From an uncultured Candidatus Saccharibacteria bacterium (lineage in GTDB: Bacteria > Patescibacteriota > Minisyncoccia > Phycocordibacterales > UBA918): a stretch of 64,000 nucleotides of DNA. Every line of letters starts with the position of its first letter. The first letter of the stretch is position 1. Position numbers and translations under genes: made by a program. The DNA lies in the NCBI GenBank assembly GCA_964493145.1, contig CAZBMV010000001.1, forward strand, positions 54,623 to 118,622. The letters run 5' to 3'. Below are positions 40,080-59,910 of the stretch, piece after piece. The notes below the pieces were generated by a model. The model was given only the letters and a program-made list of their open reading frames with translations, did no database searches and was not told the origin of the DNA.

Positions 40080-40108
40080 AAATTTAGAAATACAAAAACC
40101 AACACTTT

Positions 40109-40142
40109 TATATTATAATTCCCCATGGGGAATTATAATATA
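40109..40142. repeat. perfect 34-bp palindrome TATATTATAATTCCCCATGGGGAATTATAATATA (copy 1; dyad extends to 40105-40146)
   Basis: Exact copies at 40758-40791 and 53597-53630, each with its own extra dyad-symmetric flanks. Confidence 0.8.
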
Positions 40143-40154
40143 AAAGTGTAATGT

Positions 40155-40724: not shown

Positions 40725-40757
40725 ATAAGCCAGCGCAACTTATTTTGTAACACAACT

Positions 40758-40791
40758 TATATTATAATTCCCCATGGGGAATTATAATATA
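40758..40791. repeat. perfect 34-bp palindrome, copy 2 (dyad extends to 40751-40798)
   Basis: CACAACTTA-[core]-TAAGTTGTG. Confidence 0.8.
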
Positions 40792-40844
40792 AGTTGTGTT
40801 CAACGGGAGCATTGGAACAATAGGTATGATTGTTTGAAAACAAG

Positions 40845-41993
40845 TTATTGCAGATCAAACATCCAGAGCGCATTGTCGTTCTTGTTGATGAAGTAGAGCG
40901 CCGATTCATCCGGTGCAATGCCAATCGTGAGCACGTCAACCTCTCGTCCCGTTTCCGTAAGAAAATTGCTTAATACCGTTGCTTTGCCTTCTCTAATATC
41001 AATTCGCCAGAGCACGTCACTGTAGGAGATGCTCCCCATGTACCAATCATCAGGAAATCGCTTCCCTGCACCGAGGTCTTCAGGTGCAGAACAGTACAGG
41101 TATGAAGAACCACTGATACACTTTTCCGGAATGACAGTAATCGGAACAACGGAAGGGTTCCCCTCAGAAAGGTTTGCGAGAGAGTAGACAACACCATCAG
41201 CAAGCACCGTTGTAATCGGTGTTGCGTGGTGCACAATACCCATAAGGCCATACCCACCCGCGGTTACGTACCGAAGCCTATTTTTAGACACTTCATAAAG
41301 TGACCCTCGCTGCATTGCTGTTGGAACAGTGTACACGTACGTTGTCTCGCCCCAAATTACGTGGATATCCCGAAGCGGGATGCTAAACAACTGCACGGTC
41401 GTTTCTTTTTGCACATCGTATGCGTACCCCACAGAACCACTTTCATCCTTGAGTAGGTAGTACAACGTGCTCGTCGCTTCTCCAAAATGTATTTCAGTTG
41501 CTCCTGCCGGTAATTTTTTTCCTACGAATGAGCCACCCTGTGCTGATGCAAGTGTTCCAACGAGCGTTTCTGTATTAAGTTGAGACAGAAGCGTGATCGC
41601 AACAGAAGCGCCGTTTCGTGAAAATACTGCCTCGCGTGCACCAGGGAGCGTTGTGCCACTGATGAGTGACTCAGAACCATTCGCGGTGTTGATTTGGTAG
41701 ATGTGTCCGGTCCCCTGCTCCACGTAACGTATACCACCATCAACAAAACTCGCTCCCGCGACAGGGCGAACGGTAAGTTGTTTCAACTTCTGTATCTTAC
41801 CTGCGATGTTTATATCCTGAACATCAACGACCGAGTCATGAACTGCGACATCAGACGAATTTCCTCCAATACCAAAGTTTGAAAAAACTTCCGAACCATT
41901 CTTGGGAGACCCGAAGGTGAAAAGGTACGCCCACACACCTAGAATGATGAGAATGAGAAGGGTTCCTATAATAATGAGAATTGTTTTTTTCAT
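40845..41993 (-). CDS. secreted/membrane-anchored repeat-rich protein (beta-propeller-like), first gene after the T4SS-like cluster
   Basis: N-terminal TM/signal, Gly/Ser/Thr-rich repeats, no catalytic motifs. Confidence 0.4.
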   Translation of the reverse strand: MKKTILIIIGTLLILIILGVWAYLFTFGSPKNGSEVFSNFGIGGNSSDVAVHDSVVDVQDINIAGKIQKLKQLTVRPVAGASFVDGGIRYVEQGTGHIYQINTANGSESLISGTTLPGAREAVFSRNGASVAITLLSQLNTETLVGTLASAQGGSFVGKKLPAGATEIHFGEATSTLYYLLKDESGSVGYAYDVQKETTVQLFSIPLRDIHVIWGETTYVYTVPTAMQRGSLYEVSKNRLRYVTAGGYGLMGIVHHATPITTVLADGVVYSLANLSEGNPSVVPITVIPEKCISGSSYLYCSAPEDLGAGKRFPDDWYMGSISYSDVLWRIDIREGKATVLSNFLTETGREVDVLTIGIAPDESALYFINKNDNALWMFDLQ

Positions 41994-42736
41994 TGTGGCA
42001 TACCTTGATTTCCGTCATTACCGTAAGACGCATCTCCATAAGTACATTCTCCAACTGAAGCACTTATTATTGTGAACGTACCACTACGTGCGCTACATTG
42101 CGCGCGCGCACCACTATCATCGTAATCAACGATGTTATAACACGAAGGACAAACAGGATCAAAAATAGGAGTAAGTGAGTAACGCTCCGTTTGTATGGTA
42201 ACGTTTGTGTTTCGAATCGCCTCATCGGCAAGTTGTTCTGACGTTCTACCTTCGCCCGTATCGATGCCACCTGCTCCTGTTCCCCGCGAAGACTGATTAA
42301 GTTGAACTTTCGTTGCGTTTTCCAACACATTCAATTTCGTGAGTTCCGGGTTGATGGTGTAGAGCACGATGTACGGGAGGAGGAGTATGGCAAGTCCCAT
42401 GAGCACGCCTTTAATATCATCTTTAGCAGAAGATTTACCAGTCACCACTTCAGTTGTCGCATATTTAACACCCGCGATGGCTATTTTTACAACACCGAAA
42501 AGCGCACCGATGGAAATGAGGAGAATGTATATTTTGTTTATGTAATCAGGAAGGCTCGTCGCACCAGATGTATTGAGTCCGGGGACGTTCACGAGGGGCG
42601 TGTATTTTGCCGTCTGTGCGAGAGTGGGAGTCGCAAAAACAGCAACAAAGAAAAAAACTAAAAAGACAAGAGAAAAAACGCGGGCGAGATGAGTTTTTGT
42701 TGTACATGAAGAAAACATACGCTTATTCAAAAACAA
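41990..42736 (-). CDS. TrbC/VirB2-like pilin candidate with Cys-rich C-terminal extension
   Basis: Signal peptide, then two hydrophobic helices (ILLISIGALFGVVKIAIAGV and VLMGLAILLLPYIVLYTI) separated by a short polar loop, as in VirB2/TrbC. Confidence 0.4.
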   Translation of the reverse strand: MFLNKRMFSSCTTKTHLARVFSLVFLVFFFVAVFATPTLAQTAKYTPLVNVPGLNTSGATSLPDYINKIYILLISIGALFGVVKIAIAGVKYATTEVVTGKSSAKDDIKGVLMGLAILLLPYIVLYTINPELTKLNVLENATKVQLNQSSRGTGAGGIDTGEGRTSEQLADEAIRNTNVTIQTERYSLTPIFDPVCPSCYNIVDYDDSGARAQCSARSGTFTIISASVGECTYGDASYGNDGNQGMPQ

Positions 42737-43733
42737 GATTCAGTGCCTTTTCAATAAATTGTGGGACAGTACCTTTTGTGACCACCCGATACTCCACCTG
42801 TGCGGAGCCCGCCCCGCCCGTGCGTGCCAAAACGAGCGCGTTGGGGATACCTGTCTTTGATTGTACCTCGGTACCGTCAAGTTTCCACACAAAATCAGCA
42901 CTCTGTGCCGTTAAAGCGGTATTGAGGAAAAAGGGCTCACCGAAAAGGGTTGTTTCGTCACTCACAAACGAGAACGGATTTCGCACTTCACGGAGGAGGA
43001 GCCCGAGGAGCGGACTGTGTTCGTAAAAGTGTACCTCGGGTTCAACAAGATTTATTTCCACTTCCCCCCTTCCCACAGAGCGCCCATCATTCGCAAAAAC
43101 TTCAACGGAGATCTCTTCTTCACCAAACAGGGACGACGTGATGGTTACGGCATACCTTCCCTTAACCGGCCCCCCAAAAAGAACAGATCCCGCACGACTC
43201 CATTTATACGTGTACGCGGAGAGGGGCATGCTTGAGCCGTCGTCAACAACAGCGACGAGTTTCATTGGGGTGTTGTGTGTGGGGAGGCGGCGACCTTTGT
43301 AGAATGTGGGAACGTACGAATCTGTTTCAACAACAACATCCACGACGGAAGGTGTAAGGGTAATTTCTTTTGAGAGCGAAGGCGCTCCCGTTTTTGTGAG
43401 GACGACACGAACGGAAAGTTTTTCACCCACGTCACCCGTACGAAGAGAAATGGAGCGTTCGTTCTCAAGGTCAGACCGCCTTTCTCCGTCCACAAACCAT
43501 GAAACAGTCGCACCTATCGCATCTACCGAATAGTCATCAAGCGAAACAACGACAGTTGAGTGGGGGGCGGGGTACGATGGACGTGTGGTGAGCTGAACCC
43601 CAGCGCCGCCCAGTGCGGCAAATTGCGCATGGGCAGGAGAAAAGGAAACAAGAAACAAACCGAAAGCCAACCCAAAAAACCATAGAGAGTGAAGACGTTT
43701 CATGTTCCCAACCATATACAGTAAGTGTATCAC
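42723..43733 (-). CDS. secreted hypothetical protein (signal peptide)
   Basis: 336 aa with signal peptide, beta-rich; coupled to the neighbouring genes by overlaps. Confidence 0.4.
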   Translation of the reverse strand: MIHLLYMVGNMKRLHSLWFFGLAFGLFLVSFSPAHAQFAALGGAGVQLTTRPSYPAPHSTVVVSLDDYSVDAIGATVSWFVDGERRSDLENERSISLRTGDVGEKLSVRVVLTKTGAPSLSKEITLTPSVVDVVVETDSYVPTFYKGRRLPTHNTPMKLVAVVDDGSSMPLSAYTYKWSRAGSVLFGGPVKGRYAVTITSSLFGEEEISVEVFANDGRSVGRGEVEINLVEPEVHFYEHSPLLGLLLREVRNPFSFVSDETTLFGEPFFLNTALTAQSADFVWKLDGTEVQSKTGIPNALVLARTGGAGSAQVEYRVVTKGTVPQFIEKALNLVFE

Positions 43734-43794
43734 GCTACAGACATTCTCTGCTTAACTAATAAACAAAAGAGAGTTATTCCCAGGGTAGTCCTCA

Positions 43795-44490
43795 TTACCG
43801 CACAGCCTTTGTATTTTTGCTAAACAAAATATAACACACCCAAATAACAAGCCACGGAAAGAGATTTGTTACAGGGAAGATATTAAGCGCTAAACAAACA
43901 GCGGTCACAAATGTTGTCATTGTTGTTGCTAGGGGGTCAATTTCAAACAAATAAAATACAAACATGTAACAAATGAAAAGCACAAGAGTCATAACAACAA
44001 CTACAATCCAGAGCGCATACCCGAGAGGTTCAAAAAACAGCCAGTCTTGGAAATCAAACATCTTTCCAAGAAGTTTTCCGTACCACGTTTCATGTCGCAC
44101 ATGCAATACCACGCCATGGAGACCAAAACCAACAAGAGAACCCAATGCACAAACCAACTGGATGACGTACGCAAACAGAATTATTGAAATTGTAAAACGA
44201 AATGCTGTTTTCGTAACAACGCCAGCCGGTTTCATTTTTTTGGTAAGACTCCTTTTCAGGTTTCGTCTAACGTACTCATTCTTTGCCACACGAAGCGCTT
44301 CTGCCGTTTGGGACACAGTCCCCTCGGTACGTTCACCAGGTTCTTCCACAGGAATTTCATTCGTTTCAACACCCCTTTCTTTTTTTTCCCAATAATCAGC
44401 AAGGAGGCGTTCGTCGGTTGTTTGGCGTGATGGTAAGGAAGAAACCTTCTCATTCCAATCCTTTTGCTTGGCTTCATCAATATGTGGCAT
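43795..44490 (-). CDS. polytopic membrane protein of the T4SS-like cluster
   Basis: 231 aa, charged N-terminus plus 4 TM helices. Confidence 0.4.
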   Translation of the reverse strand: MPHIDEAKQKDWNEKVSSLPSRQTTDERLLADYWEKKERGVETNEIPVEEPGERTEGTVSQTAEALRVAKNEYVRRNLKRSLTKKMKPAGVVTKTAFRFTISIILFAYVIQLVCALGSLVGFGLHGVVLHVRHETWYGKLLGKMFDFQDWLFFEPLGYALWIVVVVMTLVLFICYMFVFYLFEIDPLATTMTTFVTAVCLALNIFPVTNLFPWLVIWVCYILFSKNTKAVR

Positions 44491-44495
44491 AGTGT

Positions 44496-46292
44496 CTATG
44501 TACTACCTCGTGCAAGTTCCGCACGCGCTTGCTGTATCTGGAGGAGTTGCGATGGGTCGGACGTGATGATTTGGTCTTCCGTGTATGACGCCATGACCTT
44601 AATCGCGACGTGCTTAAGGCCGACGAAGAAGATACCCTCCCCCACCCCTGACTCTAAAAGCATGAACTTTTCTTCATCGGTGAGGTTGAACACGCTCTGG
44701 AGTGTGTCAATCGCCGTCGGTGATTGCTTCATGAGAAGCTGAATGGATGAATTCGTGATCATCGGAACGCCGTACGGTGAGCGAAGGAAATCGTCCACGT
44801 CTTGTGTGATTGTTGAGAGGCCGAGGTAGTACTTTCGTCCGCGCTTTGCGACATTGTGGAGAAAGGCGGCCGTGTCGGGGGATTTGAGCATCCACCACGC
44901 CTCATCAATGACGAGGAGGCGCTTTTTGAGTTCACGACGAACCGCACCCCAGATGTGGTTCGTGATGATGTACATGGCGATGGTCTTCAACTCCTCCTCC
45001 ATGTCACGGAGAGAGAAGACGATGAACTTTTGATTGATGTCCACATTTGTCGGTTCGTTCATGAAGCCCGCCCACGTACCCGATGTGTACTTTGTGAGGC
45101 GTTGTACCAATGATTCGCTCCCCTCCATTCCCGCGAGTACCATTTCAAAATCCGAGAGGAGGGGTGGCGGGAGGTCGCGATAGTCACCGTTTCCCGTGAT
45201 GTCCTTGAGGGCATACACCTCGTGAAGCGCCGCATCAATGATGGCGTCTTCTTCCGGCGTGAGTCCGCCGAGCATGAGACGCATGAGCCCCACGAGTTCA
45301 ATAATGTGCGAGCGGAGAAGTTCCTTCGGATTTTCATCGGCTTGCGGTACGGGGAGATCAAACGGATTGATGTGGTGACTTGAGGAGAGCGAGATGTTGA
45401 AGAAGCGACCACCGGTTGCTTCCGCGAGGTACTCGTACTCACGTTCCGGATCAATGACGATGACTTCCGTACCGAACATGAGCGAGCGGAGAATTTCCAG
45501 CTTTGTCGTGTACGACTTTCCCGCGCCGGATGTTGCGAAGGTGACCGAGTTGTAGTTTGTGAGCTTGAAGCGATCAAAGAGCACGAGGGAACTGTTGTGA
45601 CGATTGATGCCATAGAGAATGCCGTTGTCCGAGGTGAGATCAAACGAGGTGAACGGGAAAAAACTGGAGAGTGGCGAAGAGTTGAACTTCGTGTGCACGA
45701 GGAGCATGTCGGAAACGGTGGGAATGACACTCAAGAACCCCTCTTCTTGCTGGAAAAGTGCCGGCTTAATGTAGACGAGCCGTGCATCAAGAATACCCTT
45801 TACTTCAGTTTCCATTTTGTTGAGAGTCGCCTCATTGTCGGCGTAGAGCGCAATGTAGAGGCCGACGTTAAAAAGCTTCTCTTCCGCTTGCTGAAGTTTG
45901 TCACGGAGGTCCTCAAGGTTGCGGTATGCGGCATCAAGTTGCGGGTCGCGAACCATCCCCTTCTCGGCACGCTCATTGATTTGGCTCTGAACCTCAGCGA
46001 CCTTTTTTTGGAATTTCTTAAGAGTCTCTGTCGTGTTGATAGGGTGCACAACGATAGACACATCAATTTCCCGCTCAAGGTTGAGGACAGGTTCAAGCCA
46101 CCCGTCATTGAGGTACCGCGGGTACGACACCGCAAAAAAGACACGTGAGAGGCGTCCGCTCACATTGAGACTGCGCGGATTTATACTTATTGCGGACGGA
46201 GCAACAACATCGGTGAGCGAGAGCGGAGTGTTCGCCGGCGTTGCTTCTGTAGCATCTTTCTTTTTTTGTTGTATAAAATCAAAAAGACTCAT
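44496..46292 (-). CDS. virB4: VirB4/TrbE/CagE-family type IV secretion ATPase
   Basis: Walker A FATSGAGKSYTT, Walker B LLVIDEAWWML, the GRKYY motif, and the N-terminal FFAVSYPRYLNDGWL region typical of VirB4. Confidence 0.8.
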   Translation of the reverse strand: MSLFDFIQQKKKDATEATPANTPLSLTDVVAPSAISINPRSLNVSGRLSRVFFAVSYPRYLNDGWLEPVLNLEREIDVSIVVHPINTTETLKKFQKKVAEVQSQINERAEKGMVRDPQLDAAYRNLEDLRDKLQQAEEKLFNVGLYIALYADNEATLNKMETEVKGILDARLVYIKPALFQQEEGFLSVIPTVSDMLLVHTKFNSSPLSSFFPFTSFDLTSDNGILYGINRHNSSLVLFDRFKLTNYNSVTFATSGAGKSYTTKLEILRSLMFGTEVIVIDPEREYEYLAEATGGRFFNISLSSSHHINPFDLPVPQADENPKELLRSHIIELVGLMRLMLGGLTPEEDAIIDAALHEVYALKDITGNGDYRDLPPPLLSDFEMVLAGMEGSESLVQRLTKYTSGTWAGFMNEPTNVDINQKFIVFSLRDMEEELKTIAMYIITNHIWGAVRRELKKRLLVIDEAWWMLKSPDTAAFLHNVAKRGRKYYLGLSTITQDVDDFLRSPYGVPMITNSSIQLLMKQSPTAIDTLQSVFNLTDEEKFMLLESGVGEGIFFVGLKHVAIKVMASYTEDQIITSDPSQLLQIQQARAELARGST

Positions 46293-46297
46293 AGGTG

Positions 46298-46918
46298 TTA
46301 CCGTTGCGGTGCTTGTGAAAGGTCCTCGGGATTAAAAATGTGGTAGTACAGTTCGGTGAGTTCGTCTGTTCCCAGAGGCGCGGTACGGATGCCGATGCGC
46401 GCGAGCCCCTGCTCCACGACAGACACGCGCTGTTCCAACTGCATGCGGTCTTCAAAAAATTTATCTGAGACACCTCCCCCCTTTTTTGTTTTCGGCTTAA
46501 GGAATTTCCCTATACCCTCAACCTCAAGCGACGCTGACCTATACGGCACAATGACAAAGAAATTCTTTGTCATAATTTCCACTTCGCTCGTAAAGGTGGT
46601 AATGAACTCCATGTACTCTCGCAACTGAATGCGCATGAGGTCGTTGTCTTGATGCGATTCTCTCTCTTTGAGGATTTCTAGGTACGGCCGTATATCAAGA
46701 CGTCGCGACTGAGCGTATATTTGGAGAGAAAAGTCCACCGCATTAAGAAATGCCTGAAATTGAGAGAGAATCGCCTGCTGTTCTTCGGATGCTTTGAGCG
46801 CAAAGTTTATGGAAGAGGCGAGGAGCACCATACACATTTGCCCATCTTTAAGAATGACGACATCATCGTGAATGTCTGCAATGGGAACAAATTGTTGCGT
46901 TGCGTTTTGTGTTGTCAT
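46298..46918 (-). CDS. T4SS-associated protein resembling the extreme N-terminus of Gram-positive VirB4 (possible split VirB4 N-fragment)
   Basis: VPIADIHDDVVILKDGQMCMVLLASSINFALKASEEQ resembles the DG.I.KDG...L.V..INF.L.S.EEQ start of TraE/TcpF-type VirB4. Stops 5 nt before the VirB4 start. Confidence 0.4.
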   Translation of the reverse strand: MTTQNATQQFVPIADIHDDVVILKDGQMCMVLLASSINFALKASEEQQAILSQFQAFLNAVDFSLQIYAQSRRLDIRPYLEILKERESHQDNDLMRIQLREYMEFITTFTSEVEIMTKNFFVIVPYRSASLEVEGIGKFLKPKTKKGGGVSDKFFEDRMQLEQRVSVVEQGLARIGIRTAPLGTDELTELYYHIFNPEDLSQAPQR

Positions 46919-46920
46919 AA

Positions 46921-47322
46921 TTAACGTTCGGTTTGATTGAGCTCAAGTTTTTTAGTCAGCGCCGAAATGGAATTTTGGTGAACGGAAGAAAGATCTGATG
47001 TTTGCTGGGCTTCTTCCCCGTAGCCGTTTGTCACCGTCTGTGAGGATTCGCGTTTCCAAAGGTACAGTTTATTCTTTGTCGTATACCGCGCCGCTGACTC
47101 AAGGAAGAGTGAGAACGGGCGATTGTTGACGCGGTGAAATGCGAGCGAAAAAGAGAGGGCGGCAATCGGGAGGCCAAAGAGAATCGCCAAAATAAAAGGA
47201 GCGCTCAAAAAAAGAATGACGAGGATGCCCACTCCACCGGCGAGGTACACGAACTGGCGCCACGTAAGGGGGCCAATAACCTTGTCTTCAATCTCAATGA
47301 ATTGAGGAACCTCAAAGCGCAT
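46921..47322 (-). CDS. PrgI/VirB3-like small membrane protein
   Basis: MRFEVPQFIEIEDKVIGPLTWRQFVYLAGGVGILVILFL...; hydrophobic hairpin, positioned before VirB4 as in Gram-positive T4SS. Confidence 0.45.
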   Translation of the reverse strand: MRFEVPQFIEIEDKVIGPLTWRQFVYLAGGVGILVILFLSAPFILAILFGLPIAALSFSLAFHRVNNRPFSLFLESAARYTTKNKLYLWKRESSQTVTNGYGEEAQQTSDLSSVHQNSISALTKKLELNQTER

Positions 47323-47378
47323 ATATCAGTATTGTACCTTATCCGCACGCCCGCTCCCCCACGGGCGTGCGGATAAAA

Positions 47379-47930
47379 CTACTCACCCGCCCTTTTCCCC
47401 TCCTCGTATGCTTCGTACCCTCGTACGGGAGAGGAGGCACCGGACTCGTCTTTGATAGACGCAATATCTTTTTGCATGGTGCGTGTTGGCGCAATTGCCC
47501 TAAGCACCTCTTCGCGTGTGAGCGGACGCGGGCTATTCTCGTTTGTACCACTCGCGTTCTCAATTCCTTCGGGACGGAGCTCAAGTTTTTCACGAGTGTC
47601 TTTATTTGCACTCGGTAACACAACTGTTTCAGCAGTAGCATTCAGCGAATTAAAAAAGACACCAATAGTTTTTTCAATTTCAGGTATATGCGCAGAATCA
47701 ATTCCCAAAGCAGAAAGTTCATTTTTAAAATCTTCAGGCGACTTAAAACCAAGAATTGTATCGCCAATTAAGTCAATGAAAGCAAGTCTTTTTTGCTCAT
47801 CAAAATTATTTTTTGTTACCAATACACCAATAACTTCTCCTAGCTCTAGGCTACCGTATAGATTTTTTACCGGCACACTAGCATTTCGGTATGCAAGAAG
47901 CCTTTTTTCAGAGGTGATAGTGTCGTTCAT
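47379..47930 (-). CDS. hypothetical protein of the T4SS-like cluster
   Basis: 183 aa, no motif; stop abuts the start of the upstream gene. Confidence 0.35.
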   Translation of the reverse strand: MNDTITSEKRLLAYRNASVPVKNLYGSLELGEVIGVLVTKNNFDEQKRLAFIDLIGDTILGFKSPEDFKNELSALGIDSAHIPEIEKTIGVFFNSLNATAETVVLPSANKDTREKLELRPEGIENASGTNENSPRPLTREEVLRAIAPTRTMQKDIASIKDESGASSPVRGYEAYEEGKRAGE

Positions 47931-47931
47931 A

Positions 47932-50199
47932 TTAGAATCTTGAACCTGCCGGAGTACTAAAGAAATTATTAAATGCGTTATTCCCGTGGATCATTTGAAC
48001 ATTTCGTTTAATGTTCGCTCTCGCCGTGTCGTCAATTGAATCATTATCAAGTATTTTTGTGAGTACATTTGCGTTTAGATGCTGCGCTGCTTTAACATCA
48101 GTAAGAATTTGAACAGGAAGATTTGCTCTCTCAGAATCATTACGAATTCTTCCAAACAAACGTGTTGCTGAAGCGGGGGTTGAAACACCTGCGGGCGCAA
48201 ATTCTGTAATAAGTGAAGTGTTTCGGGCATTTTTGAGAACAGATTTTTCGCTGGGGGTGAGGTTCTTCATGTCGTGGATCTGTTTTGATGTCAAGTGACC
48301 GGCATGTTGGACAAGTGTGTTGAAGTCCATTGCATCAAGATCACTTGCATCTGCTTTGCTAATATTCCCAGCATTTCCTCCTGCGCCTCCCGATACCCCA
48401 TGTTTATTTTGAACGTGAATTGAGCGAGCAGAGCGTAATTTCGCTTTCTTCTCATCGTCAAGGTCTTCAGACTTTGCTTTCATTAAGGATTCAAACTGAG
48501 AAGAAGACATATTTTCCACGAGAGCATTATATTCGGGAGTTCCCTCTTTATGTTTTTCAAGAAGTTTCAAAAGTTGTTCATTTGAAGCGTTTGTGATGGA
48601 ACGTTCCATGTCAATTCTTTGTTGGCTTCCAGTAGGTGCCGAATGACCTGCGGCAATATTGGCACCAATATTACTGACTTGGGCACTTTGTGCCCTAGCT
48701 CTCTTAATTTCTTTTGTTTCATCTTTTTTGTCCTTGAATGTTTTACTGCCACCGTAATTACTTTTCGCCGCTTTTGTTGCAACTGCGTTTATTCCAGTGG
48801 CACGCATAGCTAGGGCACCAATTTGCGCGCCTCTAGTATTGCTTTTGCGTAATGAATCCTGTTTGTCGGCGACCCACTGACCAGCACGACCAATCGTGTT
48901 GCGTCCCATCCACCCGGTAGCACCTTTACGAAGATTATCACCGGCGCCAATCATCATTCCCGCACCCTCAACCCCAAGCTTCTTTGCCACGAGTAGAGAT
49001 TGGATGAGGAAGAAAATGATGACGGAAAAGTTTAGGAACATGTAGTATGAATCCGCCTGTTCCCCATTGGTCATCGCTTTCATGAAACTTCCACCTGAAC
49101 CAATAAGGTTGAGCCCACCAATGAGTGTGAGTGAAATGAGTGTGAGAAAAAGGTAAATTGGTGCGAAAAAAGCTTGTGCAAGCAGTTTTCCCCAAAGTGA
49201 GGACGCCATGCTTGCCGTTTTTGGGAAAATAGTTGCGGCAAAAAGAATCGGTGAGGCAACCATAATGAGAATGAGAATCACAAACCGAATCACGAGCAGT
49301 ACCGCAGCAGCGAAGAACACAAATGCCGCAATGAAGAGAACTAATGCGCCGAGAACGTAGAACCAAACCATGCCAGCTTTTGTTACGTTGTTGAAAGTGT
49401 TCGGGTCAGGTGCTTTGAAAATGGTTGTAATTCCAAGACGATCAGCAACAGCAGCGGAAATGGTACCCCCCCCGTCTGTCATGGAGGTATAAATTTGGTA
49501 TGAAGTATAGTTTCCGAAATCAACAACAAATTTCACAATGAAGAGACTGAAGTTGATGAGGAGCGCACCGATGATGATGCGTGAGAGTGTTTGCTTTATA
49601 AAGTGACTATCCGGGTCAATAATGGCTCTGATGCCGAGGTAGATGAATCCGAAAATAAAAGCCAGGTTTGCAAAGTCACGAACGAGTTTCCACGCGTTAT
49701 CTATCGCCAAACCAAATGATTGTGTATTGACCATGTCGCCCATACCAAAAACAAATTTTTGGAGTGCAGCATCAAGAAGCGTCCCTCCTACCCACGTAAA
49801 CGCGGACGCCATTGTGAGAATGAGGTTACCGATGTACTGACCAACTTGTGACCAAAAACCACCGTCCTCTTTTTTCTTGTCTTTCGCTGTAGCAGCTTGG
49901 TTTTTTGCTTCCGCTTCTCTCCGCACCTCTTCTTGCCACTGTTGGTTGAGGGCGTCGTTTTCAGCCTGTCTTTCATCATAAGTCTGTGTATCGTTTTGAT
50001 CTGCGATAGCGCCAAGATCTACATTTGAGGTATCAACCCCTTGAGTATTGCCGCGCGTATAGTCAACAGCAGTAGGATCAGCGTCTTGAGCAAAACCAAC
50101 ACGCACCATTCCAAAAAAAGAAAAGAGGAAAAGAAGTGCAATCGCCAAAAGGGTTGTTCTCTCCCCGAGCGTATTTTTTTGTTGATGCAGAGAAGTCAT
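47932..50199 (-). CDS. VirB6/TrbL-like polytopic membrane protein with long hydrophilic C-terminal extension
   Basis: Signal-like N-terminus (MTSLHQQKNTLGERTTLLAIALLFLFSFFGMV), ~8 TM helices, then a ~330-aa polar tail. The ORF-track start (50400) overlaps the upstream gene by 200 nt and is trimmed. Confidence 0.45.
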   Translation of the reverse strand: MTSLHQQKNTLGERTTLLAIALLFLFSFFGMVRVGFAQDADPTAVDYTRGNTQGVDTSNVDLGAIADQNDTQTYDERQAENDALNQQWQEEVRREAEAKNQAATAKDKKKEDGGFWSQVGQYIGNLILTMASAFTWVGGTLLDAALQKFVFGMGDMVNTQSFGLAIDNAWKLVRDFANLAFIFGFIYLGIRAIIDPDSHFIKQTLSRIIIGALLINFSLFIVKFVVDFGNYTSYQIYTSMTDGGGTISAAVADRLGITTIFKAPDPNTFNNVTKAGMVWFYVLGALVLFIAAFVFFAAAVLLVIRFVILILIMVASPILFAATIFPKTASMASSLWGKLLAQAFFAPIYLFLTLISLTLIGGLNLIGSGGSFMKAMTNGEQADSYYMFLNFSVIIFFLIQSLLVAKKLGVEGAGMMIGAGDNLRKGATGWMGRNTIGRAGQWVADKQDSLRKSNTRGAQIGALAMRATGINAVATKAAKSNYGGSKTFKDKKDETKEIKRARAQSAQVSNIGANIAAGHSAPTGSQQRIDMERSITNASNEQLLKLLEKHKEGTPEYNALVENMSSSQFESLMKAKSEDLDDEKKAKLRSARSIHVQNKHGVSGGAGGNAGNISKADASDLDAMDFNTLVQHAGHLTSKQIHDMKNLTPSEKSVLKNARNTSLITEFAPAGVSTPASATRLFGRIRNDSERANLPVQILTDVKAAQHLNANVLTKILDNDSIDDTARANIKRNVQMIHGNNAFNNFFSTPAGSRF

Positions 50200-50200
50200 A

Positions 50201-51706
50201 TTAGAAATTTGTCTCCTGACATGCGTTATCAATGGAACCGGTGAAGGACGAAATTTCGGTTTGCAAGTTCGGAATGGTTTGCAATTCAACGGACACGAGT
50301 TGTGGAGCGGAATGCAAATTATTTCCGTCGCGGAACGCCATAAATCGTTCCATAATACGTGATTGTGCTGCGGGGATTGATGTTGCATTGTACTTTTCAA
50401 GGAGTGAGTTTATCGTCGCACCGGGAGTTGATGAATTTTCCAGTGCAGAGTAATCGGCGAGCCAGACGTTAAGTGTTGCAATAACTGTTTGCGCTGAAGC
50501 AATCGCAGTTTGCGCTGAGCTCAGTTGACTTTGGAGCGACGAGGTGAGGTTGCCGGGGGTACAGACCTCGTACACCTCATTTCCGCTATCGTCGGTTGTT
50601 GTCGCTCCGGGGTACACTCGTTCTCGGTACGTTGAGGCATCAGTGATGAGATTGACAATTTGTTGCTGAAGACCGAGGTAGCGTTCCTCATTTGTTATGG
50701 CGGTTCTCAGTGCGGAGTTTGCACCCTCAGAAGCACCGGTAACATCGGTTGAATCTTGCATTGGCTCATCACGCATTCGGTCAAAGTAATCTCCGGAAGA
50801 ACCGTTCCCCGGTTCGGTGAGACCGAGGAGCCCACCGACACCACCTAACGCTTCACCTACGAGTTGTGCAAAGAGAGCTCCGACGAGCTCATTGATCTCA
50901 TCCGCGGCAGCAATTCGTTGGTTCGTAAGACCCAGAGCACTGTTTAATTGGTCTTCAATAACAGAACCGGGAGTGATAATGTTTCCATAATCGTCTTCCC
51001 TGGAGAGAAATCCCTTACCAAACTCAAGAAGTTTAATTTCTTGCCCCTGCGCATTGCTGATGCTTGCGTACATTGCCGTGTTTGCCTCAAGGTATGCACT
51101 GTATGGGTTGTTCCCCGGCATGAGTGCCATTTCGTACCACCCATCCCAGCCACCCGCGAGGAAGTTTCCGTTCATAAAACTTTCCATATTGCTCACGACG
51201 CCACTCAGCGTACATTGCGCTTGGTAGTTGCGACGTTGGTTGTACTGCATCTGGAGTGCAAGTTGAACGTTAAGCTTAAACGGCGAACAGAGAAACTTGA
51301 GCGGTGAACCCCAAATGAAATCACCCGCTACTCTGTCAGCGATATTCATGAGGAATCCCTCAAGGTCGGTCACAAAGGCGGGGCTCCCCTGAAAGCCCGA
51401 GTTCACCCACTTGGTCGTACTCTTGATCATTTGTTGAATAGTGAGGTTGACGAGTTGCCACGCGATTTTATCAAGGACATACTCCTTTGTCGCCAGACTT
51501 TGAATGGAGGCGGACGTTATGGCATCAAACGCCGCGGAGATTGCACTTTGCACCCACGCGCCTATTTCTCCGACGATATTATCATCAAACGAGTGCGCCT
51601 TTTGAACCGTTAACGACTGCGAGACCGGAGCAAAAACAAAACTTGAAACAAGAACAAAGGAGGTGGCGATGAGGGTTACTTTTTTAAGAAATGAAGGCGA
51701 CATCAT
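50201..51706 (-). CDS. secreted hypothetical protein (501 aa)
   Basis: Signal peptide; Gly/Ser/Asn-rich; no motif. Confidence 0.4.
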   Translation of the reverse strand: MMSPSFLKKVTLIATSFVLVSSFVFAPVSQSLTVQKAHSFDDNIVGEIGAWVQSAISAAFDAITSASIQSLATKEYVLDKIAWQLVNLTIQQMIKSTTKWVNSGFQGSPAFVTDLEGFLMNIADRVAGDFIWGSPLKFLCSPFKLNVQLALQMQYNQRRNYQAQCTLSGVVSNMESFMNGNFLAGGWDGWYEMALMPGNNPYSAYLEANTAMYASISNAQGQEIKLLEFGKGFLSREDDYGNIITPGSVIEDQLNSALGLTNQRIAAADEINELVGALFAQLVGEALGGVGGLLGLTEPGNGSSGDYFDRMRDEPMQDSTDVTGASEGANSALRTAITNEERYLGLQQQIVNLITDASTYRERVYPGATTTDDSGNEVYEVCTPGNLTSSLQSQLSSAQTAIASAQTVIATLNVWLADYSALENSSTPGATINSLLEKYNATSIPAAQSRIMERFMAFRDGNNLHSAPQLVSVELQTIPNLQTEISSFTGSIDNACQETNF

Positions 51707-52575
51707 ATGTCAAAAAGATAAAAGAACGCGCCGAGTTCGTCGTTTGCATAGGTAATACCGTTTTCACCGAGAGCTTCGCCCATAGCCTTGAAGGAATTTG
51801 CCATAGCGGTTACATCATCATAGTACTTTCGTACGCGCGCGAGGGCGTAGAGTGGGTCATCAAACGCCTTTTCCATTGCTTCTATGTCGGTGAGAATTGC
51901 TTCGTACGCATTGAGGAGCGCGAGGTGTTCATTGACGAACGAATCCGGCACGCTCATTTTAAGCATGTCATTAATCATGCCGACGTACGCCTCGCGTATG
52001 GGTGCGAGTTTTGCGAGCACGGCGGGGTCGTTCGTATCAAGCGCTTGTTTTAAAATTGTCACCTCATTCACCCCTCCCGTTTGATACTTCACGACGATTT
52101 CCGGTATGCGATTTCCATACTCGCGCATCGCTTCAAAGGTCGCAGGAACGATGGTGAGTTCAAGACGAGAGCGACGTTTGCTCTGTGTGTTTTCTTCAAT
52201 GGCGGTGACGGCATTCCCGACGAGCAGAGACGGGTCGCTGAAATCTTGACCGTTTATTTTCCCCTGAAGGTAGTCTTGAAAAAATGCTTCAGAAAATTTT
52301 CCCGTGAAGGTGGTTGGTTCCTCGTACGGTTCCGCACCCTCTGCTTCATTGTTTGGCGCGGGTGGCGTTATTGCTTTGATACCAAGACTTTCCTCCCAAT
52401 CTTTAATGCCATCATTGTCCGAGTCGGTCGCTTCAATATACGTTCGTTCGGGTGCCACCGCGACGACGACTTGTGCTTCCTGTGGTTGTGCCGTCGTCGC
52501 ATTCACGTGCAAAGCGCCAAGGATGATGACGATCCCCATTGCGACTGCTCCTCCTATACGAATACTCCCTTTCAC
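51703..52575 (-). CDS. secreted/anchored hypothetical protein, first gene of the T4SS-like cluster
   Basis: N-terminal TM/signal and a DSDNDGIKDWEE (calcium-binding-like) segment. Confidence 0.4.
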   Translation of the reverse strand: MKGSIRIGGAVAMGIVIILGALHVNATTAQPQEAQVVVAVAPERTYIEATDSDNDGIKDWEESLGIKAITPPAPNNEAEGAEPYEEPTTFTGKFSEAFFQDYLQGKINGQDFSDPSLLVGNAVTAIEENTQSKRRSRLELTIVPATFEAMREYGNRIPEIVVKYQTGGVNEVTILKQALDTNDPAVLAKLAPIREAYVGMINDMLKMSVPDSFVNEHLALLNAYEAILTDIEAMEKAFDDPLYALARVRKYYDDVTAMANSFKAMGEALGENGITYANDELGAFFYLFDI

Positions 52576-52649
52576 ACGAAGGTGGATTACTCATGTAGTA
52601 TAGCAAGATGTGTGTAAAAACATGTGATTTTTGTGCACACAACGTGTGG

Positions 52650-53531
52650 TTAACTCTGTGGAGAGAGAGGTTGATTTTGATGTGTGTAGAGTTTGTGCGC
52701 GAGCGCGAGCCACTTCTCAAGAGGAACGTCTTCCCCGCGGACGTCTTCCCTAAGGCCGAGTGTGGAAAAAGTGGGGGTAAGAACATCGCGCGCAACCATA
52801 CCGGAAAGATTTCCAATGAGTTGCTTCCGCCTTGACTTGAACCCACAGTGGAGCACCGAGAAGAAAAATTCCTGAAAAGAAGGTGTCTCCCCCGCATTCC
52901 CTAGGGTTCCCCTAGGGAATGCGGGGGGAGACAGGCGGTCTTTTGAAATGTGCTGAACTGCGAGAATGGCCGAATCAATCTTTGGAGGAGGCATGAAATT
53001 GCCTTTTGTGACGGTTTTTACGTACCGTGGTTCACCAAAAACCTTTACAGAGAGCGACAAAACCGACTCCTTCTCGCTTCGTGCAATGCGCTCGGCGACC
53101 TCTTTTTGTACAAGAAAAACGAGAGTTAATGGGGGTATGTCATGCTCAAGAAAATGGCGAAAAAGAAAGCCGGAAATGTAGTAGGGGATGTTTGCTATGA
53201 GTTTGTAGGCACTCGGCCGAAGGCCGAGTGCCCCGAGGTCAACATTCCGTACATCATCATGCACAATAACAAGCTTTTTAGCCGTAATTTCCTCCTCAAA
53301 GGTTTTTTGAAGTGCTTCAACGGCACGTATGTCTGCCTCTATGGCGACAACATTTGCCCCACGAATGAGAAGTTCACGAGTGAGCATGCCGGTCCCGGGG
53401 CCTACCTCAAGCACTACATCACCCCTTTTTACCTCTCCCGCTTCCGCCATTGCCTCTGAAATACGGGGATTTTTGAGAAAATGCTGCCCCAAAGACTTTT
53501 TTGCATCAATCTTTCCTATCCTTTTTTTCAT
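52650..53531 (-). CDS. ksgA: 16S rRNA (adenine1518/1519-N6)-dimethyltransferase
   Basis: LGQHFL, VLEVGPGTGMLT (motif I), NIPYYIS; contains a 46-nt palindromic in-frame segment (see repeat at 52885). Confidence 0.85.
   Translation of the reverse strand: MKKRIGKIDAKKSLGQHFLKNPRISEAMAEAGEVKRGDVVLEVGPGTGMLTRELLIRGANVVAIEADIRAVEALQKTFEEEITAKKLVIVHDDVRNVDLGALGLRPSAYKLIANIPYYISGFLFRHFLEHDIPPLTLVFLVQKEVAERIARSEKESVLSLSVKVFGEPRYVKTVTKGNFMPPPKIDSAILAVQHISKDRLSPPAFPRGTLGNAGETPSFQEFFFSVLHCGFKSRRKQLIGNLSGMVARDVLTPTFSTLGLREDVRGEDVPLEKWLALAHKLYTHQNQPLSPQS
52885..52930. repeat. 21-bp inverted repeat with 3-nt spacer embedded in-frame in ksgA (TCTCCCCCGCATTCCCTAGGG-TTC-CCCTAGGGAATGCGGGGGGAGA)
   Basis: Seen directly; encodes the PAFPRGTLGNAGETPS segment of KsgA. 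Confidence 0.7.
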
Positions 53532-53585: not shown

Positions 53586-53639
53586 TTCCGCCGCTTATAT
53601 TATAATTCCCCATGGGGAATTATAATATAAGCGGCGGAA
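53586..53639. repeat. 54-nt perfect palindrome containing the third copy of the 34-bp core; abuts the pcrA stop, ~50 nt upstream of the ksgA start
   Basis: TTCCGCCGCTTA-[34-bp core]-TAAGCGGCGGAA. Confidence 0.8.
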
Positions 53640-57712: not shown

Positions 57713-57779
57713 GCCATTCGGGCTTTTTCTTTTTCAACGGTCAGTACTTTCTCTCCCAAAAAATTAGGAAAATCACATT

Positions 57780-57813
57780 TATACCATAACGCGCATATGC
57801 GCGTTATGGTATA
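57780..57813. promoter_or_regulatory. perfect 34-bp palindrome TATACCATAACGCGCAT|ATGCGCGTTATGGTATA between the TrmB-like regulator gene and the membrane-protein gene; candidate operator
   Basis: Seen directly; 8 nt after the regulator stop and ~70 nt before the downstream start. Confidence 0.45.
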
Positions 57814-57821
57814 AACGGTGG

Positions 57822-59651: not shown

Positions 59652-59910
59652 CATGGAGCAGGTTCCGAGGCGACCTGAACAAAACGTCTCAAACAACACG
59701 CCCGAATGGTGGAATCACTTTCACCCTTCGGGCTTTTTCTTTTTGGGCACGTATACCATAAGTTCCGATCGGAACTTATGGTATAAATATTTTTTGTGGA
59801 ATCTTAAGTGCAAACCGTTACACGTCCCGCGTATCCTACGCACACCCGTATGTCTATTGACGGTAATATATAAATTTGCTACACTTTATATACAGTAAAT
59901 TCATATATTT

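What the first reader, a model, noticed from the sequence alone, without database searches (positions are those of the whole stretch)
52885..52930. 21-bp inverted repeat embedded in-frame inside the ksgA coding sequence
- TCTCCCCCGCATTCCCTAGGG-TTC-CCCTAGGGAATGCGGGGGGAGA is perfect over 21 bp except for one extra G.
- It encodes PAFPRGTLGNAGETPS in a region where KsgA/RsmA proteins normally go straight from the P-rich linker to the F..RRK segment.
- A hairpin-forming palindrome inserted in-frame is reminiscent of Rickettsia palindromic elements that colonise ORFs.
Basis: partly seen in the sequence, partly recalled or inferred. Interest (0 to 1): 0.5.

Follow-up and report, generated by a model that had tools for sequence, protein, structure and literature searches.

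The report
In-frame hairpin repeat inside ksgA
A 45-base, hairpin-forming palindrome sits in-frame in a floppy linker of the rRNA methyltransferase gene ksgA of a candidate-phyla-radiation (CPR) bacterium, and its tip matches small palindromic repeats in other CPR genomes that mostly lie just after genes and occasionally inside conserved genes.

Summary
It has perfect 18-nt arms, extends to a 50-nt palindrome (52884-52933) with one bulged base, and folds far better than shuffles (z = -8 to -9). It lies in-frame in ksgA/rsmA (52650-53531, minus strand) and adds 15 residues (SPPAFPRGTLGNAGE) that 117 of 120 close homologues lack. An AlphaFold model places them in a low-confidence coil between the two domains.

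It is not a one-off. Its 21-nt tip, TCCCTAGGGGAACCCTAGGGA, recurs in 11 fetched loci, at least 10 from Patescibacteria. Most of these are short hairpins 8-37 nt after stop codons. One is in-frame in recG, at a site where about 35 of 120 close relatives carry assorted insertions. A distant KsgA carries a sister unit at the same codon position.

Best reading: a small REP/RPE-like palindromic repeat landed in a permissive linker. How it moves is unknown. Rivals are de novo replication template switching and a selected RNA structure.

I rate it a new variant of a known kind, of moderate interest.

The parts
52650..53531 (-). ksgA/rsmA coding sequence (293 aa), intact, host of the insertion
   Evidence: ORF list. 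Pfam PF00398 RrnaAD, E = 1.6e-38. PDB KsgA/RsmA hits down to 6.5e-30. 7696 homologues with E <= 1e-10. The UvrD-helicase -> ksgA gene order is conserved in relatives.
52884..52933 (.). Full 50-nt palindrome (23/24-nt arms with one bulged base, 3-nt loop TTC on the plus strand = GAA on the gene strand)
   Evidence: Sequence. MFE structures pair the whole stretch: RNA -48.6 kcal/mol z = -8.1, DNA -28.8 kcal/mol z = -9.1.
52889..52927 (.). Perfect core of the palindrome: 18-nt arms 52889-52906 and 52910-52927
   Evidence: the repeat finder I13, 100% complementary; own scan.
52894..52922 (.). Inner 29-nt unit GCATTCCCTAGGG-TTC-CCCTAGGGAATGC. It carries the family tip (TCCCTAGGGGAACCCTAGGGA on the gene strand) and is delimited from the outer stem by the bulge.
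   Evidence: The 21-nt tip occurs in 11 other fetched loci. The repeated unit in Saccharibacteria CAZQIF01 is about 27-29 nt with unrelated flanks. Calling this stretch the 'unit' is my inference from that size match and from the bulge position.
52887..52931 (-). Net 45-nt (15-codon) insertion relative to the 26-aa-class homologues: codons 201-215, SPPAFPRGTLGNAGE
   Evidence: Codon-by-codon comparison with P0002, P0010 and P0007 and the protein alignments. The boundary is ambiguous by 1-2 codons. AlphaFold2 gives mean pLDDT 54 for residues 201-210 and 67 for 211-220, below 50 at residues 206-213, with no secondary structure between strand 187-193 and helix 219-230.
52875..52880 (-). UCUUUU on the gene strand (codons PSF). 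It pairs with AAAAGA upstream in the MFE fold and gives a U-rich tail two bases after the extended stem.
   Evidence: MFE structures. The terminator scan did not call this site, so 'terminator-like' is my reading only.
52940..52945 (-). AAAAGA on the gene strand (native SKD codons), the outer A-rich partner of the U-rich tail
   Evidence: MFE structures. The SKD codons are conserved in homologues.
53208..53232 (.). Second, older hairpin inside ksgA: GGCACTCGGCC-gaa-GGCCGAGTGCC, encoding G-ALGLRPSA (residues ~100-108)
   Evidence: Own scan. Present in all 7 distinct ksgA DNAs held, as a 16-bp perfect stem in P0037 and P0049. 6 of 16 pairs change on both sides; 0 of 500 shuffles reach the covariation score.

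Best explanation
The feature is a real, lineage-specific, in-frame insertion of a small hairpin-forming palindromic repeat into the interdomain linker of KsgA/RsmA.

**Anatomy.**
- The core is a ~29-nt unit whose 21-nt tip, TCCCTAGGG-GAA-CCCTAGGGA, defines a family dispersed in Patescibacteria (CPR) genomes.
- Most family members sit a few to a few tens of bases downstream of stop codons, where they look like terminator hairpins.
- A few sit in-frame in surface loops of conserved genes.
- In this ksgA the unit is embedded in a further 10-bp outer stem.

**Why this copy persists (inferred).**
- Its length is a multiple of three.
- It is in the one frame of the gene strand that avoids the two TAG triplets of the tip. 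That frame yields PRGTLG.
- It lies in a disordered linker between the methyltransferase domain and the C-terminal domain.

**Shown versus inferred.**
- Shown: the palindrome; that it is an insertion; the family resemblance; the position of other copies; the disordered location.
- Inferred: that it arrived by transposition-like or ectopic copy-paste of a pre-existing hairpin unit; that the arms are kept or extended as a palindrome by intrastrand template switching; that its effect on KsgA is near neutral.
For: **It is an insertion.** 117 of 120 homologues, including the nearest (P0002 75%, P0010 72%), lack it.

**It belongs to a family.**
- A scan of one genome per GTDB species for the 15-mer CTAGGGGAACCCTAG gave 71 loci, 22 of them CPR. 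Of the 16 hits whose stems extend by at least 5 further perfect pairs, 14 are CPR.
- The flanks, which the search did not force, are again TCC...GGA in 11 loci.
- In Saccharibacteria MAG CAZQIF01, 4 unit copies on four contigs share only ~27-29 nt; their flanks are unrelated.
- The ksgA insert of P0007, AATCTCTCTAGGGGAACCCTAGAGAGTTG, is 27/29 identical to an intergenic unit of that Saccharibacteria genome.

**Same site, separate lineages.** P0007 carries its unit at the same codon boundary, but it sits elsewhere in the KsgA tree. The clade joining it to the window holds 77 of the 120 sequences.

**Other ORF colonisation.**
- The same tip is in-frame in recG of L033.
- About 35 of 120 RecG relatives at 78-90% identity carry insertions of 5-47 aa at that one site.
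- All 5 insertion alleles with DNA in hand are hairpins; the base form is not.
- 12 of 29 insertion alleles allow unusually long perfect stems when back-translated.

**Position of intergenic copies.** They lie 8-37 nt after stop codons in 7 independent loci.

**Foreign look.** CTAG is 8.6-fold depleted in the window (29 observed, 249 expected). The palindrome holds two of those CTAG and the only two CCTAGG.

**Permissive site.** In the AlphaFold model, pLDDT falls to block means of 54 and 67 across residues 201-220, below 50 at 206-213, in coil between the two domains. A third, unrelated 189-nt palindromic insertion (17-nt terminal inverted repeats, -90 kcal/mol) occupies the same linker in P0049.
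Against: - No second copy of the unit or of its arms occurs in the 64-kb window. The rest of the genome could not be read.
- Copy numbers elsewhere are low, 1-6 exact tips per genome.
- No target-site duplication, no terminal inverted repeats distinct from the palindrome, and no candidate transposase were found.
- Outer stems differ from locus to locus yet remain complementary. Simple cut- or copy-and-paste of a fixed element does not explain that.
- Two insertions at the same codon boundary in ksgA could instead reflect a site-specific process or a function.
Confidence: 0.55

Rival explanations
1. De novo origin by replication template switching. A short quasi-palindrome in the linker was converted, perfected and extended by intrastrand template switches, so no mobile unit is involved.
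For: - **Elsewhere in this genome.** In the RluD-like gene, a 10-bp hairpin (9831-9853) has its left arm on native LAH.P codons, and its right arm opens an 8+4-aa insertion relative to solved RluD/RluC structures. That is the expected signature of an inverted copy.
- **P0049.** The outer arms of its 189-nt palindrome overlap native codons.
- **P0002.** The nearest relative has a 7-bp inverted repeat, GAACGTC-TTGGG-GACGTTC, at exactly this site.
- **This palindrome.** The outer right arm, GGGGAGACA, reads G-E-T like the native G-D-V of P0002. The outer left arm could therefore be its inverted copy, with the bulge marking the junction (my reading).
- **Paired changes.** Changes on both sides of a pair appear in the older ksgA hairpin and between the RecG alleles P0121 and P0122.
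- **Literature.** Template switching is documented to create and maintain hairpins (PMC8794818) and to homogenise and expand inverted repeats (PMC13100816).
Against: - The net gain (45 nt) is almost the whole palindrome (50 nt), so both inner arms are new rather than one being native.
- The inner 21 nt are identical to hairpins at unrelated loci in other CPR phyla. Local inverted copying cannot produce that.
- No source sequence for the arms exists in the window.
Confidence: 0.2
2. A selected cis-acting structure in the ksgA mRNA or DNA. Candidates are an intragenic attenuator/terminator, a translational pause between the two domains, or an autoregulatory mimic of 16S rRNA helix 45, the KsgA substrate.
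For: - **Stability.** The hairpin is very stable.
- **Terminator-like flanks.** AAAAGA lies upstream and CCUUCUUUUC follows the extended stem (my reading).
- **Recurrence.** It recurs at the same place in a second KsgA lineage, with two complementary pair differences next to the tip.
- **Precedent in the gene.** ksgA of this clade already carries a conserved coding hairpin with covariation. At the protein level, K/N before ALGL goes with F after it (23 of 27 versus 23 of 93, Fisher p = 2e-8).
- **Helix 45.** The tip shares TAGGGGAACC, including the GGAA loop, with E. coli-type helix 45 (sequence in PMC6107228).
Against: - It is absent from 117 of 120 close homologues, including the nearest, so it is not a conserved regulatory element of ksgA.
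- The same tip occurs in recG and in many intergenic sites.
- The helix 45 sequences listed for Parcubacteria, CPR2 and Saccharibacteria are GTAGCGGAAGCTG and GTACCGGAAGGTG, not this sequence.
- The predicted fold has a GAA triloop, not a GGAA tetraloop.
- The terminator scan did not call the site, and no Rfam family matches above threshold.
- The protein-level association is not corrected for phylogeny.
Confidence: 0.15
3. Chance symmetry or an assembly/amplification artefact.
For: The window comes from a single metagenome-derived contig. The exact protein is on record from one contig only, and its contig could not be retrieved for a check.
Against: - The expected number of such palindromes by chance is about 1e-5, and the fold z-score is -8.
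- The ORF stays intact and in-frame.
- Related in-frame hairpins appear in independent assemblies from Logan, JGI, ENA and NCBI.
Confidence: 0.03

Closest known systems
Rickettsia palindromic elements (RPEs; Ogata et al. 2000, as summarised in PMC10969869)
   Same: Palindromic, hairpin-forming DNA inserted in-frame into housekeeping ORFs, translated as an extra peptide at structurally permissive places, and present or absent between relatives.
   Different: RPEs are ~150 bp, form families specific to Rickettsia, encode a conserved peptide, and reach dozens of copies per genome. Here the unit is ~29 nt (50 nt with the outer stem), is found in Patescibacteria at 1-6 exact tips per genome, and most copies are intergenic.
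REP/BIME-type repetitive extragenic palindromes, and terminator-like repeats such as pneumococcal SPRITE (PMC10969869)
   Same: Short (20-40 nt) palindromic units with a conserved core, dispersed, lying just downstream of genes where they resemble rho-independent terminators.
   Different: This copy is intragenic and translated. Copy number is low. The tip contains CTAG, and no GTAG head as in classical REPs was seen. No RAYT-type transposase was looked for or found. The conserved part is the hairpin tip, while the outer stems are locus-specific.
Hairpins created and maintained by replication template switching (PMC8794818; PMC13100816)
   Same: Perfect stems arise in single events. There are paired 'compensatory' changes and outward expansion of inverted repeats. 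This fits the outer stem here, the older ksgA hairpin and the RluD-like hairpin.
   Different: Template switching copies nearby sequence. The inner 21-29 nt here match unrelated loci in other phyla, and both arms are new.
MITEs (e.g. Correia, ERIC)
   Same: Non-autonomous small repeats that can insert in ORFs in-frame and form stable RNA structures.
   Different: No target-site duplication, no parent IS and no distinct terminal inverted repeats were found. At 29-50 nt it is below the size of the named examples as I recall them.

Membership tests
Rickettsia palindromic elements (RPE) | Element length about 100-150 bp | tested here: not met
   Net insertion 45 nt, palindrome 50 nt, shared unit ~29 nt. 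RPE size as given in PMC10969869.
Rickettsia palindromic elements (RPE) | In-frame insertion in ORFs, translated with the host protein | tested here: met
   Intact 293-aa ORF with 15 extra residues.
Rickettsia palindromic elements (RPE) | Sequence membership in one of the RPE families; Rickettsia host | not tested
   No RPE sequences were available for comparison. Homologue names place the host in Patescibacteria (Minisyncoccia/Paceibacteria), not Rickettsia.
Rickettsia palindromic elements (RPE) | Many dispersed copies in the same genome | tested here: inconclusive
   There is one copy in the 64-kb window. Other CPR genomes hold 1-6 exact tips.
REP / BIME | Short imperfect palindrome of 20-40 nt with a conserved core | tested here: met
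   A ~29-nt unit with a 21-nt conserved tip shared by 12 loci including the window.
REP / BIME | Extragenic location | tested here: not met
   This copy is inside ksgA. Most other family members are extragenic, 8-37 nt after stop codons.
REP / BIME | Conserved GTAG-type head and an associated RAYT (Y1) transposase | not tested
   The unit contains CTAG twice, and I saw no GTAG head by eye. No search for a RAYT gene was made; only 64 kb of the genome is available.
MITE | Target-site duplication flanking the element | tested here: not met
   There is no direct repeat beyond a possible CC at the borders. One RecG allele (P0211) does have a 13-nt direct repeat around its hairpin.
MITE | Derivation from a full-length IS with matching terminal inverted repeats | not tested
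   No IS with these ends was searched for. BLAST of the element against the phage and plasmid collections found nothing.
Template-switch-generated hairpin | The new arm is the reverse complement of adjacent pre-existing sequence | tested here: inconclusive
   Both inner arms are new (45 of 50 nt are net gain). The outer left arm could be a copy of the native-looking GGGGAGACA. A clear case exists in the RluD-like gene.
Intrinsic (rho-independent) terminator | G+C-rich stem-loop followed at once by a U-tract | tested here: inconclusive
   The consensus scan does not call it. If the bulged outer stem is allowed, the tail is CCUUCUUUUC (my reading).
16S rRNA helix 45 mimic (KsgA substrate) | GGAA tetraloop on a stem matching the organism's own helix 45 | tested here: not met
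   The predicted loop is a GAA triloop. It shares 10 nt with E. coli-type helix 45, but the listed Parcubacteria and Saccharibacteria helix 45 sequences differ. This organism's own 16S is not in the window.
Any Rfam RNA family | Score at or above the family's gathering threshold | tested here: not met
   Only sub-threshold miRNA-precursor-like hits, 22-33 bits against thresholds of 70-119. The gathering scan of the whole window finds only 8 tRNAs.

The most novel reading that the evidence does not exclude
CPR bacteria harbour an undescribed kind of mini palindromic element, a ~29-nt unit recognised by its hairpin tip. It either nests in existing hairpins or is copied together with them. That would explain the conserved tip combined with locus-specific but complementary outer stems. 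Together with template switching, it would create hypervariable in-frame insertion hotspots in housekeeping genes, such as the ksgA linker and recG between helicase motifs I and Ia. It would thus be a steady source of new protein loops in otherwise streamlined genomes.
Probability: 0.25. Interest if true: 0.7.

Novelty: new variant of a known kind. Interest (0 to 1): 0.5.

Why it matters
**What is already known.** In-frame colonisation of essential genes by palindromic DNA is best documented for Rickettsia.

**What this adds.**
- The same behaviour appears, with a much smaller unit, in the candidate phyla radiation, whose genomes are usually described as streamlined and poor in repeats.
- The family offers a concrete handle, a 21-nt tip, for cataloguing such units across CPR genomes.
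- The recG and ksgA hotspots offer natural series of alleles with and without hairpins among near-identical proteins.

**What those alleles could test.**
- How palindromes arise, grow and are lost.
- Whether template switching keeps them perfect.
- How protein loops tolerate them.

**Practical consequences.**
- These insertions can mislead alignment-based trees and gene-length quality checks of CPR MAGs.
- The intragenic hairpins may affect transcription or translation of the host genes.

Tried and rejected
**Searches that found nothing useful**
- Other copies in the window: the 16-mer including the tip, the 15-mer tip and the outer arm, each with up to 3 mismatches, hit only the palindrome itself.
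- Rfam: only sub-threshold miRNA-like hairpin hits.
- Phage and plasmid collections: no match.
- Viral contigs: 7 tip hits, none with an extended stem.
It found no further ksgA case.
- The window's own contig could not be retrieved, so the genome-wide copy number is unknown.
- The exhaustive representative search found two more KsgAs with long linkers (P0243, P0246). Their DNA is not retrievable, and the back-translation test is not significant for them.

**Ideas considered and set aside**
- Helix-45 mimicry (KsgA binding its own mRNA). It is attractive because the tip shares TAGGGGAACC with E. coli-type helix 45. I downgraded it because CPR helix 45 sequences differ, the family occurs in recG and intergenic sites, and the second ksgA case was found only because I looked at KsgA homologues, which is ascertainment bias.
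- Intrinsic terminator: not called by the scan.
- DNA uptake sequence: rejected because copy number is far too low.
- DGR target hairpin, intein or intron scar, and CRISPR repeat: rejected from my own knowledge of those systems (they were not tested here), because the variation is length and palindrome content in non-DGR-type proteins and there is no array or splice signature.
- Shared descent of the window and P0007 insertions: unlikely, because the clade joining them holds 77 of 120 sequences, nearly all without an insertion.
- The identical reading frame of all in-gene copies is not evidence of homology. Only one frame per strand avoids the TAG triplets of the tip.
Full report
**1. Observation**

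The window holds a 293-aa ORF on the minus strand (52650-53531). It is an unambiguous RsmA/KsgA 16S rRNA dimethyltransferase: Pfam RrnaAD E = 1.6e-38, and the best solved relatives are KsgA/RsmA at 6.5e-30.

Inside it, the repeat finder reports perfect 18-nt arms at 52889-52906 and 52910-52927, separated by 3 nt. Reading the sequence, the symmetry continues with one extra G to 52884-52933, 50 nt in all. On the gene strand this reads UGUCUCCCCC-C-GCAUUCCCUAGGG GAA CCCUAGGGAAUGC-GGGGGAGACA.

The 80-nt region folds at -48.6 kcal/mol as RNA, against -24.4 +/- 3.0 for shuffles (z = -8.1). As DNA it folds at -28.8 kcal/mol (z = -9.1). No shuffle does as well.

The palindrome is read in-frame as SPPAFPRGTLGNAGE, residues 201-215.

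**2. It is an insertion**

The 120 best of 7696 KsgA homologues are Patescibacteria proteins; source names include Minisyncoccia and what appears to be Paceibacteria. In the segment from DSA to FFF, 117 of them have 26 or 28 residues. The window has 41, P0007 has 40 and P0049 has 91.

The two closest relatives, P0002 (75% identity) and P0010 (72%), have the short form. Codon-by-codon comparison puts the gain at 45 nt between the Leu of ISKDRL and the G/T-x-I/P-P codons. The boundary is uncertain by one or two codons.

An AlphaFold2 model built on 25 sequences has mean pLDDT 85. The insertion is coil with reduced confidence (block means 54 and 67 for residues 201-220, below 50 for 206-213). It lies between the last strand of the methyltransferase domain (187-193) and the first helix of the C-terminal domain (219-230). 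That it is tolerated as a disordered linker loop is an inference from this model.

**3. The same thing elsewhere in KsgA**

P0007 (Logan SRR35866679) has the same UvrD -> ksgA gene order. It carries a 42-nt insertion at the same codon boundary...AATCTCT CTAGGGGAACCCTAG AGAGTTG.... Its 15-nt tip is identical to the window's. The two pairs next to the tip that differ do so on both sides (C-G versus T-A, and T-A versus C-G).

In a neighbour-joining tree, P0007 is not near the window. The smallest clade containing both holds 77 of the 120 sequences. Two gains are far more parsimonious than one gain with many losses.

P0049 has an unrelated 189-nt insertion about six codons downstream. It has 17-nt terminal inverted repeats and a rod-like fold of about -90 kcal/mol. 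The linker is thus a recurrent landing or survival site for palindromic DNA.

**4. A family with a conserved tip**

I scanned one genome per GTDB species for CTAGGGGAACCCTAG and got 71 loci.
- 22 of the 71 are Patescibacteria (Saccharibacteria, Paceibacteria, Nomurabacteria and unclassified), counting L033.
- Of the 16 hits whose stem extends by at least 5 further perfect pairs, 14 are from these lineages.
- The flanking bases, which the search did not fix, are again TCC...GGA. The 21-mer TCCCTAGGGGAACCCTAGGGA occurs in 11 fetched loci besides the window.

In the Saccharibacteria MAG CAZQIF01, four copies on four contigs share only AAACTCCCTAGGGGAACCCTAGGGAGTT(T). A variant with CTCT...AGAG also occurs. 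Sequence beyond about 27-29 nt is unrelated between copies. The P0007 insert is 27/29 identical to that CTCT variant.

Outer stems differ from locus to locus but stay complementary. They are often A-run/T-run, for example ACAAAAATCTCC...GGAGATTTTGT.

In 7 independent loci the hairpin lies 8-37 nt downstream of a stop codon, sometimes between convergent genes. That is the position of a terminator.

CTAG is 8.6-fold depleted in the window (29 observed, 249 expected). The palindrome contributes two of those CTAG and the only two CCTAGG sites, so the unit looks compositionally foreign.

Nothing similar is found in Rfam, the phage collection or the plasmid collection.

**5. Colonisation of another ORF and a hotspot**

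In L033 the same tip lies in-frame in recG, between helicase motifs I and Ia: CCTCTCCCTAGGG GAA CCCTAGGGAGAGG, peptide PLPRGTLGRG.

Among 120 RecG relatives at 78-90% identity, about 85 have the base form RPPEG-LGKK-LEFGNLQ. About 35 carry insertions of 5-47 residues at this single site, with very different sequences.

DNA was obtained for five insertion alleles, and all five are hairpins:
- P0121, described above.
- P0122 (TTACATAGGG GAA CCCTATGTAA), with three pair changes on both sides relative to P0121.
- P0124 (a different tip).
- P0211 (CCCCTAGGG TAA CCCTAGGGG), flanked by a 13-nt direct repeat.
- P0158 (a 120-nt imperfect rod, -55.7 kcal/mol).

The base form, P0123, has no hairpin. A back-translation test asks for the longest perfect stem that any synonymous coding allows. 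It puts 12 of 29 insertion alleles at or below the 4% tail of random RecG segments. The test is conservative, because it misses the known hairpins of P0122 and P0124.

**6. Other hairpins in coding DNA of this genome**

*An older hairpin in ksgA.* It lies at 53208-53232 and encodes G-ALGLRPSA. It is present in all seven distinct ksgA DNAs I could obtain, and it forms a perfect 16-bp stem in P0037 and P0049.
- Six of 16 pairs change on both sides.
- No shuffle out of 500 reaches the covariation score, and slid controls are much lower.
- Third codon positions pair with third codon positions.
- Palindromic coding predicts that K/N before ALGL goes with F after it. This holds in 23 of 27 cases against 23 of 93 otherwise (Fisher p = 2e-8, not corrected for phylogeny).

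*A hairpin in the RluD-like gene (9243-10175).* A 10-bp perfect hairpin has its left arm on native LAH.P codons. Its right arm opens an insertion relative to solved RluD/RluC structures. This is the signature expected of an inverted copy made by template switching.

These cases show that palindromes are made or maintained in coding DNA in this lineage. They do not share the CTAGGG tip.

**7. Mechanism**

I commit to the following, with confidence 0.55.
- A pre-existing small palindromic unit of the CTAGGG-GAA-CCCTAG family was inserted into the ksgA linker, by transposition or by ectopic templated copying.
- It survives because it is 3n long, lies in the one frame of the gene strand without TAG, and sits in a disordered linker.
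- The 10-bp outer stem, separated from the 29-nt unit by the single bulge, may have been added by template switching that copied the native-looking GGGGAGACA (G-E-T; compare G-D-V in P0002) to the other side.
- Template switching, or selection for pairing, keeps the arms complementary.

What is shown: the palindrome, the insertion, the family, the location of relatives, and the permissive protein site. What is inferred: the mode of arrival, the composite origin, and neutrality.

The main weaknesses are these:
- There is no second copy in 64 kb.
- Copy numbers are low in other genomes.
- There is no target-site duplication and no candidate enzyme.
- The rule 'conserved tip, variable complementary outer stem' is unexplained. 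It could mean insertion into loops of existing hairpins or outward growth after insertion. The recG base allele has no pre-existing hairpin, which argues against the first option at that site.

**8. Rivals**

*Pure template switching (0.2).* It explains the outer stem and the other coding hairpins. It does not explain a 21-29-nt sequence shared with unrelated loci in other phyla.

*A selected structure (0.15).* The hairpin has an A-rich 5' flank and a U-rich tail, and it separates the two domain-coding halves. Its tip shares TAGGGGAACC with E. coli-type 16S helix 45, the substrate of KsgA. Against this:
- It is missing from nearly all close homologues.
- The family occurs outside ksgA.
- The listed Parcubacteria and Saccharibacteria helix 45 sequences differ.
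- The predicted loop is a triloop.
- The terminator scan does not call it.

*Artefact or chance (0.03).* This is unlikely, given the statistics and the independent assemblies with related insertions.

**9. Comparison and verdict**

In behaviour this is closest to Rickettsia palindromic elements. In size and intergenic placement it is closest to REP- or SPRITE-like terminator-shaped repeats (PMC10969869). The maintenance of the arms resembles template-switch-driven hairpin evolution (PMC8794818, PMC13100816).

It fails the size and host criteria for RPE, the extragenic criterion for REP, and the target-site-duplication criterion for MITEs. I therefore file it as a new variant of a known kind, not as a member of any named family.

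I found no paper describing such units in CPR genomes, though the searches were narrow. Interest is moderate, 0.5. The single palindrome is explained in kind. The CPR-wide tip family and the recG/ksgA hotspots are the parts worth following up.

Noticed in passing
window 53208-53232 (inside ksgA, residues ~100-108): A second perfect hairpin, GGCACTCGGCC-gaa-GGCCGAGTGCC, encodes G-ALGLRPSA. It is conserved as a hairpin in all 7 ksgA DNAs held, reaching 16 perfect pairs in P0037 and P0049. It shows paired changes at synonymous third positions and a K/N...F amino-acid coupling predicted by palindromic coding.
   Followed up: yes
window 9831-9853 (RluD-like pseudouridine synthase gene 9243-10175, minus strand): A 10-bp perfect hairpin, CCCACGCGCC-gta-GGCGCGTGGG, encodes AHAPTARG. 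Its left arm covers native LAH.P codons, and its right arm starts an 8+4-residue insertion relative to solved RluD/RluC structures. This is a template-switch-like signature.
   Followed up: partly
window 40102-40149, 40749-40800, 53586-53639: Three perfect 48-54-nt palindromes share the core TTATATTATAATTCCCCA|TGGGGAATTATAATATAA with locus-specific complementary outer stems. Each lies directly after a gene end; the third lies between the UvrD-like helicase stop and the ksgA start. The architecture, a conserved centre with variable outer stems, matches that of the CTAGGG family. The core is not found in any fetched locus or in viral contigs.
   Followed up: partly
window 57778-57815 and 59752-59785: Two more zero-loop intergenic palindromes share TATACCATAA...TTATGGTATA. 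Both are called terminator-like by the scan.
   Followed up: no
whole window: CTAG is strongly avoided: 29 observed against 249 expected from base composition. The same holds in related loci.
   Followed up: partly
L033 1682-3898 (recG) and relatives P0121-P0240: There is a hypervariable in-frame insertion hotspot in RecG between helicase motifs I and Ia. About 35 of 120 relatives at 78-90% identity carry 5-47 extra residues of unrelated sequence. All five alleles with DNA are hairpins, and one (P0211) has a 13-nt direct repeat, AAGAAATCTTCCC, on both sides.
   Followed up: yes
L013 65-1141 (ksgA of P0049): A 189-nt in-frame insertion in the same KsgA linker has 17-nt terminal inverted repeats (GGAAATCACGACGTTGG...CCAACGTCGTGATTTCC) and a branched rod fold of about -90 kcal/mol. 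Its outer arms overlap native codons.
   Followed up: partly
window 46551-46573 (TraC-like gene 46298-46918) and L210 17008-17036: An 11-bp hairpin, ATGACAAAGAA-a-TTCTTTGTCAT, encoding MTKNFFVI recurs at the homologous place in the TraC-like gene of a relative. It could be a by-product of protein conservation.
   Followed up: no
window ~40800-52600 and L003/L210: ksgA is followed in the relatives by a conserved cluster with TrbL-, PrgI-, TraC-like and VirB4/TraG-type ATPase genes, resembling a type IV secretion or conjugation apparatus. The same gene order appears in relatives at 65-72% KsgA identity. In the window I only checked the TraC-like ORF; the cluster's presence there is inferred from ORF sizes.
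   Followed up: no
L017 and L032 (Saccharibacteria contig CAZQIF010000017.1): Two copies of a longer repeat each end in the CTCT-variant hairpin. One has an 11-nt tandem duplication, CTAGAGAGTTT, within the right arm.
   Followed up: no
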